Origin: Eledone cirrhosa | Taxonomy: Eukaryota | Direction: 5' to 3' | DNA: 64,000 nt | Assembly: GCA_964016885.1 (NCBI GenBank) | Contig: OZ024740.1 | Span: 280,488,001-280,552,000 of the forward strand | Shown: in pieces, positions 1 to 59,810 of the stretch | How the letters are laid out: every line of letters begins with the position of its first letter | Position numbering within the stretch: the first letter of the stretch is position 1 | Program-made: the position numbers and the translations under genes | The notes under the pieces: model-generated | The model's input: the letters and a program-made list of their open reading frames with translations, nothing else | Database searches by the model: none | Told to the model about the DNA's origin: nothing

Positions 1-366
1 ACACTAATAGCACAAGTCTAAAAACAGCTCTCGGCAGTATTCCTTATAGATCAGGAGAAACAAACACAGCCGAGGCTTTACAACTGTTAAAGAAAGAAAT
101 AACGCCGAAACTGAAGATATATAAGACACCTTTCATGGCAATCGTCATTACAGACGGCAGGTCTCGTGACACCATAGCGACATCACGACAAGCTGCACAA
201 TTGCACAAGTTAGGAGTTCATGTTTATGCGATAGGTGTCGGATACAACTGTGATATCAACGAATTAAAATCAATAGTAAATGACCCGATTAAGAATGTCC
301 GTCTAGTGGACAGTTATTCCGCCTTACAAGGAATTGCCAAATCATTTGGTGTAAAAACATGTCAAG
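1..366 (+). CDS. Gene 1, VWA-domain exon (5' part outside the window)
   Basis: Open frame from position 3: TNSTSLKTALGSIPYRSGETNTAEAL...AIVITDGRSRD...LGVHVYAIGVG...FGVKTCQ. It ends at a phase-1 donor g|gtagg (366/367) and is paralogous to 30125-30688 and 55590-56153. Confidence 0.9.
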
Positions 367-867
367 GTAGGGACCACTTTACTTTACTTGATGTTTATTC
401 TAACAACCATAATGTTCGTATTTATAAACAAAACTAATATAAGAATCAATTTCTAAAAATTATTACGATAATCAAATTATCTTATGCTATGATAATCTGA
501 AGTACCAACGATGTATTTCTTGTTAACATTGACAGAGAAACAAAAAAGGATTTTAAACATATAATATCAATATATCCATGCATTACAATAAAGCATTTCA
601 TAATAAAACACAGAAAAGTTGAGTTGCCAAGTAAGTTATGAACTAACACTTGTATAAACCGAAAGAGGCGGAAACGGTTATTTAATTTCAGTAGCAGATG
701 GGGTGATGTTTCGATAAAGCAACATTGAGCCATTGTGAATGCAAAAAAAAAAGAAGAAAAGCGGGGTTAATTTGGTGCGAGAATGATATAGAAAGTTTCT
801 TTCGATATTTCATGTATTATATATAATTCAACAAATCTCATATTATACGTATGTATCGTATTTCCAT

Positions 868-2118
868 TTATCGTTTTCGGTACGCCCGGACGACTAACGC
901 ACGCTATATGCAAATTAGGCTGCTCAGGCGTTAATATGCATAAGGAAAGTATATACTTTCAAACGTCCAATCATCTGACAGGAAGGTATACGATGCTGAC
1001 GATAGCTAATAAGCTTGAAATTAGTATATCGTTCCTGTGTCAGTGTTGAACAAAAGGGCGACGATGGTTGCCGAGCACTGTACGGCGTAATTCGGGCTGT
1101 TTGTTTACAAACAAACCGAACATTATAATAACTGTTCGGTAAACCCATACGTACATATATATATGTGTGCATGTATGTATATATATACATACTACTGTAC
1201 GTCTGTACACATATATGTATGTACGTATACATACTTATATTTAGGTATCAGCCGTACTAAGAGTGAGAAATGAAATTTCGTTTCATTCTTTTCCAATTAT
1301 CGTTTTCGGTACGCCCGGCCGACTAACTCACTCGATATGCAAATTAGGCTGCTCAGCCGTTAATATACATAAGGAAAGTATATACTTTCAAACGTTCAAT
1401 CATCTGACAGGAAGGTATACGATGCTGACGATAGCTAATAAGCTTGAAATTAGTATATCGTTCCTGTGTCAGTGTTGAACAAAAGGGCGACGATGGTTGC
1501 CGAGCACTGTACGGCGTAATTCGGGCTGTTTGTTTACAAACAAACCGAACATTATAATAAATGTTCGGTAAACCCATACGTACATATATATATGTGTGCA
1601 TGTATGTATATATATACATACTACTGTACGTCTGTACACATATATGTATGTACGTATACATACTTATATTTAGGTATCAGCCGTACTAAGAGTGAGAAAT
1701 GAAATTTCGTTTCATTCTTTTCCAATTATCGTTTTCGGTACGCCCGGCCGACTAACTCACTCGATATGCAAATTAGGCTGCTCAGCCGTTAATATGCATA
1801 AGGAAAGTATATACTTTCAAACGTTCAATCATCTGACAGAAAGGTATACGATGCTGATGATAGCTAATAAGCTTGAAACTAGTACATCGTTCCTGTGTCA
1901 GTGTTGAACAAAAAAGCGACGATGGTTGCCGAGCACTGTACGGCGTAATTCGGGCTGTTTGTTTACAAACAAACCGAACATTATAATAACTGTTCGGTAA
2001 ACCCATACGTACATATATATATATGTGTGCATGTATGTATATATATATATATATATATATATATATATACATACTACTGTACGTCTGTACACATATATGT
2101 ATGTACGTATACATACTT
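868..2118. repeat. Tandem repeat, 429-bp unit, about 2.9 near-identical copies, intronic in gene 1
   Basis: The same sequence recurs at a 429-bp offset (ORF starts 1263 and 1692; ORF ends 924, 1353, 1782). The third copy runs into (TA)n. Confidence 0.92.
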
Positions 2119-2170
2119 ATATATATATATATATATATATATATATATATATATATATATATATATATAT

Positions 2171-2290
2171 AGAAGTAGTTACACAACAGTTAGTTCACCA
2201 TAGCGAGAACAATTGTAACCACTTCTACCTAACTCGTCGCATGGACTGAGTGCTCTGCCACTACGGATATTACCTTCCAGTGTTCTACCG
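2171..2290. mobile_element. Short microsatellite-flanked element with an internal inversion, same family as 47160-47300
   Basis: 2171-2216 is the reverse complement of about 47192-47237, and 2221-2289 matches 47231-47300 in forward orientation. Flanked by (TA)n and (TC)n. Confidence 0.75.
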
Positions 2291-3264
2291 GTCTCTCTCT
2301 CTCTCTCTCTCTCTCTCTCTCTCTCTCTATATATATATATATATATATATATATATATATATATTCCAAAGCACATCCATCGTATTTGCTATTAATTAAA
2401 TGTGTGCACTCTGAACAGCTGATTGCAACTGCATTACTGCAATTCGGCAGATTCATTGAGTGAACTTGACGTTAGCTCAATACCAGCAATCTTCGTTACT
2501 TTAACTATATATATATATATATATGTGTGTGTGTGTGTGTATATATACATATATATCAGTAGTATCATCATCACCATCAGTTTACGTTCACCTTTCATGT
2601 TGACATTATTTGGATGAGTTGCCACGATCTGAGACTAGATAGGTCAGAGAAAATGCTCACATATTCCATATTTGGAATGGCTTTCCCGGCTAGATGCTCT
2701 TCCTAACAACATCCAACGTATAAGGGTACTGAGTGTGCTTCATCGTGAAACCACCACTAACATTTTACAGTGAGTATTGTGTGCATTTCAATGTTGCACC
2801 AGCATTAGCGTGGTTGTCACATGCTAGGCCAAACTGAAGAGTACTCTTTACCCCGATATCGCCTCTGTTTGATCGCCAACAACATTATAAAGCGTATTGG
2901 ATGCATACTATCATGGCCTCAACTATGTTCCGGGATGTAAGGGCGCTCTCCACTTCATGTTGTCCCCAATTTCTTATCGTATTCACTTTTAGTGTCGCAG
3001 TGTTTGTACTGGTGGGCGGGTATTTTGTAGTACGGCAAATCGCCACGTGTCTGACTGTTTACATCATAAACAGTATTATAGTATTGAAACATAATAGTTC
3101 ACAATGAAAATACTAAAATGTAGATTAATGGTAACCCCAGATTAAATTACTGAATATTTTTTTGATATTTCTAGAATATTGAGAATAAATATTTACCAGT
3201 AGGACTTTTCTTTCACGTGAGAATATATAAAATAGAATTAATAAATAAAGGATTTATTTTACAG

Positions 3265-57271: not shown

Positions 57272-57602
57272 GTAAGTGTTATAACATTAAAGTATGCATG
57301 ATCTAAAAGAAAACAAATTATTTATATTAGTACGAGAAATTCTCTCTCACACACACGTACACATACATACACACGCACATACACACACATACATACACAC
57401 ACACACACACACACACGCACATACGCATACACACATAATACATACACGCACACATATATACTCACACACATATACACACACATTTTATATATATTATTTC
57501 CGAGTTCACACGGGAGACTCTACATAGGTACTCATCCTGCTAAAAATAACTGTCAAATATCCCTCAATATCACCTCACTGCTTTGAGCGAAGAGAATGTA
57601 TA

Positions 57603-57861
57603 TACTACTACTACTACTACTACTACTACTACTACTACTACTACCACCACAACTACTACTACCACCACAACTACTACTACTACTACTACTACTACTACCA
57701 CCACCACCACCACCACCACCACCACCACCACCACCACCACCACCACCACCACCACCACTACTACTACTACTACTACTACTACTAATACCACCACCACCAC
57801 CACCACCACCACCACCACTACTACTACTACTACTACTACTACTAATAATAATAATAATAAT
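57603..57861. repeat. Compound (ACT)n/(ACC)n/(AAT)n microsatellite
   Basis: Direct reading. Confidence 0.95.
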
Positions 57862-58636
57862 TAGGGAACAAAAGATCAGTATTGCATCATATACATATTT
57901 AATTACATATTAGGTATGTTTCATTGCCGATCAGCTCGAGGAAGGATTGAATACGTTCGTTCCTGACTCTGGAATCGAAAGCTCCTCAGATATGTATTCT
58001 CACATGTAGACTGACGTCCAAATATATATATATATATATATATATATATATATACATATTCGGTATACAAGGATGCAATTCACTTCTAGCACTCAACGCC
58101 ATATTACTTCCTAAAAACAAGGATGACGGAGTATATTAATAAAGAGGAAAATGTGAAGTTGAAGATGTTAGGCTCCTTTATTAATTGAGCCGTTATATAT
58201 ATTTCAATGACAATAGATATATCGTGATTTCTTCAGACAGCAAAAATTGATTAAAAGATAACATTTCCGAGGCAATTTTGGGTGGAATGGAGCGGACTAA
58301 AAAAATGTGTACGTTCTTTTAGTCCGCCCCCCCCCTCTCTCTCTCTCTCTCTCTCTCTCTCTCTCTCTCTCTCTCTCTCTCTCTCTATATATATATATAT
58401 ATATATATATATATATATATATATATATATATATATATATATATATATAGAGAGAGAGAGAGAGAGAGAGAGAGAGAGAGAGAGAGCGATTGGATAGTAA
58501 CGGACAAAAAGTCTTTGATCACAGATCTGCTCCATTTTATCTGACTTGGAACTGCTAAACAATAGCGGAACCCAAGAAATTCTTATCAATATTGATAGTC
58601 ATGTATCACTCTTTAACAATTATTAATGAAAGTAAT

Positions 58637-58792
58637 ACAGACACCATGCTTTCCAGCATAGTTACGTCCCTTTACGATCTGAGTTCAAATCCCGCCGAGG
58701 TTGACTTTGCCTTTCATCCTTACGAGGTCGATAAAATAAAGTACCAGTAATGCACTGGGATAATTGATGGCCTTGTGCCAAAAGTAGAAACA
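58637..58792 (+). mobile_element. 5'-truncated SINE family 1 with a 15-bp target-site duplication
   Basis: attaatgaaagtaat at 58622-58636 and 58793-58807. Confidence 0.88.
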
Positions 58793-59247
58793 ATTAATGA
58801 AAGTAATGAAAGATTCTACTTTTAATGGAATACCTATTCAAAAATATGAAAAACCTTTCGAGTAATGTCATTAGTAATTCTCTATTTCCATAATCATGAT
58901 GATAATGAACATGATGACGACTGAGGATACTACTACTACTACTACTACTACTAATAATAATAATAATAATAATAATGCCACTACTAAAATGCAATAACAA
59001 TAAAAACATTGTAATTACAGTAAGACAATAGTGATAAAATAGAATCTTTATTAAACATAAAAATTGATTGATTGAAATTTACACACACACACACACACAT
59101 ACCCTAGCCCTAACCATACCCCACACACCTACACACTCTAGCACCCCCTAACTCCCCCCCCACACGTACATATATGTACGTACACACATGTTAATTTCCT
59201 AACTCCAGAAATATTTGCTTATATTTATTTTACTTTTTCTTCCACAG

Positions 59248-59810
59248 CGTCTATTGTATTTGGATATGATCTAATCTCTATGGGAAGCTACAGAGCCAAC
59301 ATGATAACACAGTTTATCAACACTATGTTACCTTATACTGGATATGGACATTTCAGAGTTGTGTCGTATGCCCATTGCCCGGTTAACTTCAATGTTCCTA
59401 CGACTTCATTAATGGGAAAAACTAACTGGCAAACAAAAAACAGCATAAATATTACAGTTCCCGGTTTAGCCAATGTTATGCGTGAGATGAGAAAAGAATC
59501 TGAAACAAAGGTCAATACGACTCCTTGGAAAAAGAACACGGCTGTTTTATTTGTGGATCCTTCAGTAACTACGATTACACCGGATGTTTTAAAAGAAAGT
59601 GAAAAACTTAAGCAGCAAGGCAGCAAAGTATTTCTGATCAATGTAGGCCGCAATTTATGGCCACAACCTCAAGTAGTACAGTCGATCAGCAGTCAGCCTT
59701 TTAACAGATACATTTACAGTGCACCAACATACAATCAGTTATTATACAGAGCTCACAACTCACCCTTCCAGTTCAGAGCTATGTGCAATAATTACCGCAA
59801 CAACGCTTAA
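59248..59810 (+). CDS. Gene 3, exon 5 (terminal): degenerate VWA-like domain
   Basis: Acceptor tttttcttccacag|. [22 protein letters not shown]...NNYRNNA*. 563 nt. Confidence 0.9.

What the first reader, a model, noticed from the sequence alone, without database searches (positions are those of the whole stretch)
1..59810. Cluster of three paralogous secreted VWA / mucin-linker / pseudo-VWA genes with a conserved exon plan
Seen: genes 2 and 3 splice by hand into complete in-frame CDSs (about 534 and 472 aa) with exon sizes 48/51, 28, 564, variable and 563 nt and identical phases. Gene 1 shows the last three exons. Orientation is gene 1 > < gene 2, then gene 2 < > gene 3. Known: MIDAS VWA domains mediate metal-dependent adhesion in matrilin/collagen-type and molluscan matrix proteins, and PTS tracts are O-glycosylated. 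Inference: a lineage-expanded family of dumbbell-shaped extracellular cross-linkers (mucus, adhesive, egg-coat or cuticle), which automatic annotation would probably call only collagen- or matrilin-like.
Basis: partly seen in the sequence, partly recalled or inferred. Interest (0 to 1): 0.75.

Follow-up and report, generated by a model that had tools for sequence, protein, structure and literature searches.

The report
Cephalopod dumbbell mucin-linker VWA family
These are three intact octopus-type genes, two of them seen spliced in a public sequencing run, from an 11-gene cephalopod family of likely secreted proteins whose two adhesion-type domains are joined by a likely sugar-coated tether; they likely cross-link an extracellular gel or matrix, and one relative elsewhere in this genome has a tether exon of 300,000 bases.

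Summary
Observation confirmed. Genes 2 and 3 splice to 534 and 472 aa. Gene 1, completed from neighbouring DNA, gives 644 aa. The last splice junction of genes 2 and 3 stands in one public run. The three genes are part of a 7-gene cluster and an 11-gene family in this genome, with counterparts named only from Octopus, Argonauta and Sepia. The first domain keeps all five MIDAS residues (26 of 26). The last domain is predicted to fold as a VWA (Z 14.9) but has lost the first MIDAS serine and the threonine loop (28 of 28). This broken last domain is older than cephalopods: limpet, abalone and bivalve proteins have it too. The mucin tether looks like the cephalopod addition. Genes 2 and 3 are old duplicates whose last exons are homogenised within each lineage (gene conversion; AU p≤2e-4). 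One family member has a 299,571-nt stop-free tether exon (~100,200 aa); the scan had already found that exon on other DNA. Databases call these proteins collagen XII-like, which they are not. No paper on them was found. Tissue, ligands and the cross-linker role remain inferred.

The parts
1..366 (+). Gene 1 exon 3, 3' part of the MIDAS VWA exon (whole exon 564 nt; exons 1-2 of 99 and 28 nt lie about 12.7 and 2.1 kb upstream of the window)
   Evidence: orthologues P0207/P0208
3265..3951 (+). Gene 1 exon 4, Thr/Ser/Pro-rich linker, 229 aa, acidic second half
4687..5243 (+). Gene 1 exon 5, pseudo-VWA domain and stop
27153..27715 (-). Gene 2 exon 5, pseudo-VWA domain and stop
   Evidence: junction, stop and 17 of 17 distinguishing letters in run X3
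27327..27477 (-). 151-nt run identical between genes 2 and 3 (likely gene-conversion tract), gene 2 copy
   Evidence: p 0.0006 against random placement of the 32 differences
29072..29473 (-). Gene 2 exon 4, linker, 134 aa, 50% Thr
   Evidence: its 3' end is spliced to exon 5 in X3
30125..30688 (-). Gene 2 exon 3, VWA domain with complete MIDAS, flanked by two Cys
31361..31388 (-). Gene 2 exon 2 (28 nt), end of the predicted signal peptide
   Evidence: matches the N-terminus of O. vulgaris P0030
32238..32285 (-). Gene 2 exon 1 coding part (48 nt), predicted signal peptide
52539..52589 (+). Gene 3 exon 1 coding part (51 nt), predicted signal peptide
   Evidence: exons 1-2 are 73% identical to O. 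sinensis P0011
53047..53074 (+). Gene 3 exon 2 (28 nt)
55590..56153 (+). Gene 3 exon 3, VWA domain with complete MIDAS
57059..57271 (+). Gene 3 exon 4, linker, 71 aa, Thr/Pro-rich and basic
   Evidence: last 30 nt found joined to exon 5 in X3
59248..59810 (+). Gene 3 exon 5, pseudo-VWA domain (pI 9.8) and stop
59486..59636 (+). 151-nt run identical between genes 2 and 3, gene 3 copy
59811..60291 (+). Likely 3' UTR of gene 3; X3 contig runs to 60259, AATAAA at 60286
   Evidence: contigs cannot show a true end

Best explanation
The window holds three intact paralogues of a cephalopod family whose products are predicted to be secreted two-headed tethers that likely cross-link an extracellular gel or matrix. 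Shown: exon structure, splicing of the last junction in genes 2 and 3, an intact MIDAS in head 1, a broken MIDAS in head 2, and tether lengths from about 50 to about 100,000 residues across the family. Inferred mechanism: head 1 binds a divalent metal ion and captures an acidic side chain of a partner protein, as MIDAS VWA domains do (established knowledge). The Thr/Pro tether is likely O-glycosylated and extended, and sets the spacing. Head 2 is mostly basic, keeps the VWA fold and both aspartates, and likely docks without metal on a second partner such as acidic or sulfated glycoproteins or another family member. Genes 2 and 3 are an old inverted pair; gene conversion likely keeps their folded domains alike while signal exons and tethers diverge, giving near-identical heads on tethers of 134 and 71 residues.
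For: Splice models. Spliced contigs in X3. MIDAS D-x-S-x-S, T and D in 26 of 26 N domains; in the C domains the first Asp is kept in 27 of 28 and the last Asp/Glu in 28 of 28, the first Ser in 0 of 28, and the Thr loop is a gap in 28 of 28. The C-domain model has mean pLDDT 84 and aligns to vWF A3 at Z 14.9, rmsd 2.8 A over 149 residues. The full-length model of the O. sinensis orthologue shows two confident domains, a linker with pLDDT under 50 (218-274) and pTM 0.46. No transmembrane stretch was found after residue 30 (19-residue hydropathy at most 0.95), and C-domain pI is 8.6 or higher in 23 of 28. All 11 genomic C exons are open frames. Gene conversion: in exon 5, 20 sites group by species against 4 by orthologue; in signal exons plus linker, 1 against 8; introns do not align. 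AU tests reject orthologue pairing in exon 5 (p 2e-4 and 5e-6). Analogy: mussel PTMP1 has two VWA domains and binds collagens (PMC4754843, passages read).
Against: No tissue, ligand or binding data. Family peptides and accessions were absent from the held part of the O. vulgaris skin-mucus peptide table (the file was cut when stored, and only three short motifs and a few accessions were searched). The mature proteins have only four Cys (genes 2 and 3), all explicable as intra-domain pairs, so there is no sign of disulfide polymerisation. RNA support is one run of unrecorded kind, and only the last junction was displayed. The orthologue of gene 2 used in the conversion test (P0030) is an automatic model that lacks the VWA exon, so exon 3 could not be tested four ways. 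A conserved pseudo-VWA could also be a folding or secretion cap with no ligand.
Confidence: 0.55

Rival explanations
1. They are internal connective-tissue adaptors (matrilin-like role in dermis, muscle sheath or cephalopod cartilage) that bridge collagen fibrils, not parts of a secreted gel, glue or coat.
For: Top fold matches are collagen VI C-terminal VWA, PTMP1 and integrin I domains. Family peptides were not seen in the held part of the skin-mucus table. Relatives in other molluscs carry automatic names such as 'cartilage matrix protein-like'.
Against: Tethers of 70 to 100,000 Thr-rich residues are typical of mucins (knowledge). There are no EGF repeats and no terminal coiled coil. The automatic names reflect VWA similarity only.
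Confidence: 0.25
2. They are single-ligand surface or recognition proteins (microbe binding, gamete or egg coat). Only the MIDAS head binds; the pseudo-VWA is a structural cap or anchors the protein to a charged surface.
For: The C domain diverges faster than the N domain among the 11 paralogues (mean identity 36% against 51%). Its charge varies, with pI 6.4-6.6 in 3 of 28.
Against: 33 C-domain columns are conserved in at least 80% of 28 rows, including both former MIDAS aspartates and the terminal P-x-x-F motif. Paralogues have been kept one-to-one across octopods, which does not look like an arms race.
Confidence: 0.13
3. Genes 2 and 3 are a recent duplicate made separately in this lineage and in Octopus, with no gene conversion.
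For: In the exon 5 tree the two Octopus proteins group at 100/97 and genes 2 and 3 at 81/80.
Against: Signal exons and linkers group by orthologue (8 sites against 1). Exon 5 is 96% identical between genes 2 and 3 while their introns give no alignment beyond a dispersed repeat. Differences are patchy, with identical runs of 151 and 96 nt (p 0.0006 and 0.0002).
Confidence: 0.12
4. They are collagen XII/VI chains or matrilins, as annotated, or else mis-spliced pseudogenes.
For: RefSeq name 'collagen alpha-1(XII) chain-like'. The best PDB sequence hit is collagen VI alpha 3.
Against: No Gly-X-Y run of three or more triplets. Pfam finds only VWA families. Frames are open and junctions are spliced.
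Confidence: 0.02

Closest known systems
Automatic gene models of the same family: O. sinensis XP_029635149 / XP_036358013 ('collagen alpha-1(XII) chain-like'), LOC115210637, LOC115210474, LOC115210485; O. bimaculoides XP_014771412, XP_014768754, XP_014785251; Argonauta hians GAB1599319 and others; Sepia pharaonis CAE1302793
   Same: Same signal-VWA-PTS-pseudo-VWA build; 75-87% domain identity for the orthologues of genes 1-3.
   Different: They are database entries only, and Pfam leaves the second domain below its cut-off. No paper citing seven such accessions was found.
Unnamed molluscan proteins with 1-2 MIDAS VWA domains plus a degenerate terminal VWA (Patella XP_050403925 and XP_050400838, Haliotis XP_046581489, Ylistrum XP_060073209, Potamilus, Sinanodonta; O. 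vulgaris CAI9722023)
   Same: The terminal domain is broken in the same way: both Asp mostly kept (19 and 23 of 23), Thr loop missing in 23 of 23.
   Different: The linker is 13-24 aa in 21 of 23, and a Cys precedes the last domain in 22 of 23, against 0 of 15 cephalopod-family rows. The cephalopod domains form their own groups (SH-aLRT 99 and 98, quick tree).
[quoted passage not shown]
   Same: Secreted molluscan protein of similar size with two VWA domains; binds collagens and is proposed to cross-link them (PMC4754843, passages read). Second-best sequence hit in the PDB (E 5.5e-35) and a fold match.
   Different: Both PTMP1 domains match the query by sequence (2 stretches). From recall, it has no long mucin tether. 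C-domain identity is only 17-18%.
Matrilins and collagen VI/XII
   Same: MIDAS VWA modules used as extracellular adaptors (knowledge).
   Different: No EGF repeats, coiled coil, fibronectin III repeats or triple helix.
Gel-forming mucins (MUC2/MUC5 type)
   Same: A single long PTS exon between two globular ends that varies greatly in length.
   Different: The ends are VWA and pseudo-VWA, not VWD-C8-TIL and cystine knot, and there are almost no cysteines.
Snail mucus CAMPs and VWA proteins (PMC10475054, passages read)
   Same: Molluscan mucus proteins that pair Ser/Thr-rich glycodomains with a folded domain.
   Different: CAMPs have the glycodomain at the N-terminus and a fibrinogen-like or lectin domain at the C-terminus. 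No sequence comparison was made.

Membership tests
VWA domain (PF00092), N domain | Profile match above the curated cut-off | tested here: met
   131.5 and 128.5 bits against a cut-off of 23.8
MIDAS-bearing VWA, N domain | D-x-S-x-S ... T ... D | tested here: met
   26 of 26 rows
MIDAS-bearing VWA, N domain | Actual metal-dependent ligand binding | not testable with these tools
   needs protein
VWA fold, C domain | Central parallel sheet flanked by helices, aligning to solved VWA domains | tested here: met
   Predicted model: Z 14.9, rmsd 2.8 A over 149 residues to vWF A3. Atlas neighbours are all VWA clusters at 0.93. Pfam 16.9-23.2 bits, under the cut-off.
MIDAS-bearing VWA, C domain | D-x-S-x-S ... 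T ... D | tested here: not met
   First Ser in 0 of 28, Thr loop a gap in 28 of 28; both Asp kept; the second-Ser column is ambiguous in the alignment
Collagen XII / VI | Gly-X-Y triple helix | tested here: not met
   no run of three triplets in the three models
Matrilin | EGF repeats between the VWA domains | tested here: not met
   linker has no Cys; Pfam finds no EGF
Matrilin | C-terminal coiled-coil oligomerisation helix | tested here: not met
   the chain ends with the VWA-fold domain and short helices; no coiled-coil program was run
Gel-forming mucin | PTS domain | tested here: met
   T+S+P 53-66% of the linkers; O-glycosylation itself untested
Gel-forming mucin | VWD-C8-TIL assemblies and cystine knot | tested here: not met
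Molluscan VWA(n) + degenerate terminal VWA proteins (unnamed group) | Terminal VWA with Asp pair kept and Thr loop lost | tested here: met
Molluscan VWA(n) + degenerate terminal VWA proteins (unnamed group) | Short linker with a Cys before the terminal domain | tested here: not met
   0 of 15 against 22 of 23; replaced by the mucin exon
Secreted protein | Cleavable signal peptide, no transmembrane helix | tested here: inconclusive
   hydrophobic N-terminus and no later hydrophobic stretch; SignalP not available; gene 1 has a longer charged N-region
CAMPs | Conserved N-terminal Ser/Thr-rich region | not tested
   CAMP sequences not fetched; the architecture differs from the paper's description

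The most novel reading that the evidence does not exclude
This is an undescribed, coleoid-wide class of VWA-capped mucins. A fixed metal-binding head and a fixed metal-free pseudo-VWA head are held apart by one exchangeable tether exon that evolution has tuned over three orders of magnitude, from about 50 residues to a single 299,571-nt exon. The largest member would be an ~11-MDa chain of about 100,200 residues, over twice PKZILLA-1. The small paralogues in this window would be its tractable models and perhaps its co-assembling partners, kept compatible by gene conversion.
Probability: 0.35. Interest if true: 0.85.

Novelty: new variant of a known kind. Interest (0 to 1): 0.5.

Why it matters
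Cephalopod mucus, egg coats and matrices are poorly mapped to genes, and this family is hidden under a wrong collagen label with its second domain unannotated. It offers a clean case of a conserved pseudo-MIDAS domain with an unknown job, shared across molluscs. It also ties 50-70 kDa proteins that can be expressed to what may be one of the longest coding exons reported, so the function of the giant's two ends can be tested on small paralogues. The gene 2 / gene 3 pair shows exon-limited gene conversion in an old inverted pair.

Tried and rejected
Complex prediction of two copies of the C domain gave 'no answer' (score 0.03; alignment not used) and is not used as evidence either way. The run search listed no RNA holder on record. 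X1, X2 and X4 run on into the intron and are one sample, so they are no independent support. Reads could be laid on only one stretch, so exons 1-3 junctions, gene 1 and the giant exon have no read test here. Rfam found nothing in the window. Accession searches in papers gave 0 hits. Eight topic searches showed no paper on this family. Passages in the argonaut eggcase preprint, the O. maya oviducal gland paper, the limpet mucus paper and three cephalopod genome or cell-atlas papers did not mention it. The supplement of PMC11431876 could not be read, that of PMC12607849 held 393 characters, and the slug-glue paper PMC6124484 is not held (title seen only). Unseen supplements may list these proteins. 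Signal exons were not found for the C8 giant, the C37 member or the members at C1 280.42 and 280.74 Mb within the 9-19 kb searched. P0049 (E 6e-40) was dropped from the family: its score is summed over 7 ordinary VWA repeats. P0084's last domain was left out of the tree and counts by my end-of-protein filter. The 115-row tree is the quick one, as the careful search did not finish. The scan's notes held no look-alike of the C exon and nothing on conversion.
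Full report
Verdict. The proteins are a cephalopod variant of an unnamed molluscan VWA architecture. Their function is still inferred.

1. Observation. Six-frame translation shows three sets of VWA, Thr-rich and divergent-domain frames, on +, - and +. Splicing at GT-AG sites gives gene 2 (48, 28, 564, 402, 563 nt; 534 aa) and gene 3 (51, 28, 564, 213, 563 nt; 472 aa), with phases 0,1,1,1. Gene 1 was completed from upstream DNA, guided by its Octopus orthologues: 99, 28, 564, 687, 557 nt; 644 aa. 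Its exon 1 is a homology-guided call.

2. Expression. Four runs hold the last exon of gene 3, and none has its kind on record. Three (one sample) run on into the intron. X3 does not: its loose ends are the last 30 nt of gene 3 exon 4, the gene 2 exon 4|5 junction and the gene 2 stop with its downstream sequence, and 17 of 17 differing letters are gene 2's. I read X3 as RNA. Only that junction was displayed, and the tissue is unknown.

3. Copy number and range. The genome is 3.0 Gb, and I take it to be an octopod from protein similarity. Three different queries return the same 11 C-domain exons: 7 on C1 between 280.42 and 280.75 Mb, 2 on C15, 1 on C37 and 1 on C8. One search adds 3 weaker places. 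All 7 C1 genes have a 564-nt VWA exon. Signal exons of 48+28 and 48+31 nt were found in two more C1 genes. A profile search of 1.84 billion representatives gave 230 hits, 18 of them at E<=1e-30. One of the 18 is an ordinary VWA repeat protein and was dropped. Of the other 17, 10 are tied to names from Octopus, Argonauta or Sepia, and 7 are unnamed or were not looked up. In a quick tree of 115 domains the family's C domains (28 rows) and N domains (26 rows) each form one group (SH-aLRT 99 and 98). The C rows were picked by the C profile, so the N result is the more independent. Apart from genes 2 and 3 and the 280.42-Mb gene, the genomic paralogues each pair with a named Octopus or Argonauta protein. 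The expansion therefore predates the Octopus-Argonauta split, and the family predates the octopus-cuttlefish split (inference).

4. Anatomy. The N domain is a plain VWA with all five MIDAS residues in 26 of 26 rows and Cys at both ends. The linker is 53-66% Thr/Ser/Pro. The C domain falls under Pfam's cut-off, but its model (pLDDT 84) aligns to vWF A3 at Z 14.9, and Atlas neighbours are VWA clusters. It keeps both MIDAS aspartates, lacks the first serine and the threonine loop in 28 of 28 rows, and is mostly basic. A model of the whole O. sinensis orthologue has two confident domains, a low-confidence linker and pTM 0.46, which fits a dumbbell. There is no Gly-X-Y run, EGF repeat or transmembrane helix.

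5. Origin. The second tier of hits are proteins with one or two intact VWA domains and a degenerate last one. Nine were looked up: eight are tied to Patella, Haliotis, Ylistrum, Potamilus, Sinanodonta or Tegillarca and one to O. vulgaris. The other rows I labelled 'mol' are unnamed. Their last domain is broken in the same way (Thr loop missing in 23 of 23). Their linker is 13-24 aa in 21 of 23 and is followed by a Cys in 22 of 23, against 0 of 15 in the cephalopod family. So the pseudo-VWA is a molluscan inheritance and the mucin exon likely the cephalopod addition. One bivalve row has a 59-aa Thr-rich linker, so the line is not absolute.

6. Genes 2 and 3. Octopus has a counterpart of each (P0030 and P0011). 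Signal exons and linkers group by orthologue (8 sites against 1). Exon 5 groups by lineage (20 against 4, all 4 within its first 14 residues). Between genes 2 and 3 only exons 3 and 5 align (88% and 96%), apart from a dispersed repeat, with identical runs of 96 and 151 nt that random placement rarely gives. AU tests reject orthologue pairing in exon 5 (p 2e-4 and 5e-6). Gene conversion in an old inverted pair is the simplest reading. Caveats: P0030 is an automatic model without the VWA exon, and only one other lineage was available.

7. The giant relative. Between the VWA exon and the C exon on C8 lies one stop-free frame of 99,900 codons; the other five frames hold 2,002-11,047 stops. The exon is 299,571 nt, phase 1 to phase 1 like the window's linkers, and gives 100,233 aa (10.9 MDa) from the VWA exon to the stop. 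It has about 7,000 Thr/Gly-rich residues and then about 640 units of 143 aa. Among 500 units there are 515 distinct single-base variants, none of them a stop against 18.9 expected (P about 4e-9), while amino-acid changes are near the neutral number (382 against 371). The longest exact repeat is 5.3 kb, but three tandem duplications of 6-13 kb at 99.95% or more make the exact length uncertain. An O. bimaculoides model shows the same linker-to-C junction. I found no first exons and have no reads for it. I found this frame before looking at the scan's notes; the scan had already reported it from other windows. PKZILLA-1 is 45,212 aa (bioRxiv 2024.01.29.577497, passages read). I recall predicted bacterial and insect proteins of 80,000 aa or more but did not check them.

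8. Mechanism. Most likely (0.55) these are two-headed tethers that cross-link an extracellular gel or matrix: a metal-dependent catch at one end, a glycosylated spacer, and metal-free docking at the other end. Only the anatomy is shown. The nearest studied analogue is PTMP1 (PMC4754843, abstract and passages); the MIDAS description is also in PMC4597212 (passages). The main rival is an internal connective-tissue adaptor (0.25). Against skin mucus, the held part of the O. vulgaris skin-mucus peptide table (PMC10138644, supplement searched, file cut) contains other VWA proteins but none of my three motifs or the family accessions tried.

9. Novelty. The orthologues are in databases under automatic names. 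No paper was found by accession or by eight topic searches; subscription papers and several supplements were not visible. Papers seen as passages only: PMC11431876, PMC10475054, bioRxiv 2021.07.10.451900, PMC8976471, PMC7333891, PMC13076209, PMC9712504, PMC9068888. Rating: a new variant of a known kind, interest 0.5. The family definition, the pan-molluscan pseudo-MIDAS and the conversion are new here, and the giant exon was already known to this scan.

Noticed in passing
G000:C8:26,254,135-26,553,705 (L020-L048, L018, L017): Family member with a 299,571-nt stop-free linker exon, about 100,200 aa; already reported by the scan from other windows.
   Followed up: yes
G000:C107:10,000-152,000: About 60 near-identical VWA exons in tandem at 1.6-3.2 kb spacing; probably one giant repeat gene.
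   Followed up: no
G000:C4:319.99-320.89 Mb; C21:19.57-19.64 Mb; C2:94.09-94.12 Mb; C1:282.1-282.7 Mb: Further clusters of more distant VWA exons.
   Followed up: no
G000:C1:213.74 Mb, C1:282.43 Mb, C18:33.12 Mb: Weak matches to the pseudo-VWA, each near an intact VWA exon; likely the pan-molluscan short-linker type.
   Followed up: no
window 48062-48416: Near-perfect 355-bp palindrome (97%) in the spacer between genes 2 and 3; foldback element or assembly feature.
   Followed up: no
window 21867-23133 (+) and 60950-62050 (-): Broken reverse-transcriptase frames of LINE-type elements (PF00078, E 1.5e-6 and 9.5e-12).
   Followed up: partly
window 24130-24765 (+): Two low-complexity frames (Ser/Pro- and Asn-rich) just upstream of the RT remnant's region; no Pfam hit; possibly part of a retroelement.
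   Followed up: no
window, 24 places, e.g. 60481-60660, 28796-28974, 35463-35641: Dispersed ~180-bp SINE-like repeat, 72-98% identical copies.
   Followed up: no
window 37620-40733, 41054-41739, 861-2051: Tandem arrays: 25-bp unit x125, 71/139-bp unit, and a 429-bp unit x2.8 inside gene 1 intron 3.
   Followed up: no
window 31388-31391 (-) and O. sinensis isoforms P0001/P0011: Exon 2 acceptors allow small alternative splices: a tandem CAG-CAG in gene 2, and a 2-residue isoform difference in O. sinensis.
   Followed up: no
ends of exon 2 in genes 1-3: Basic pairs (KR, KR, RRR) just before the first Cys could be a convertase site that trims a short propeptide (inference).
   Followed up: no
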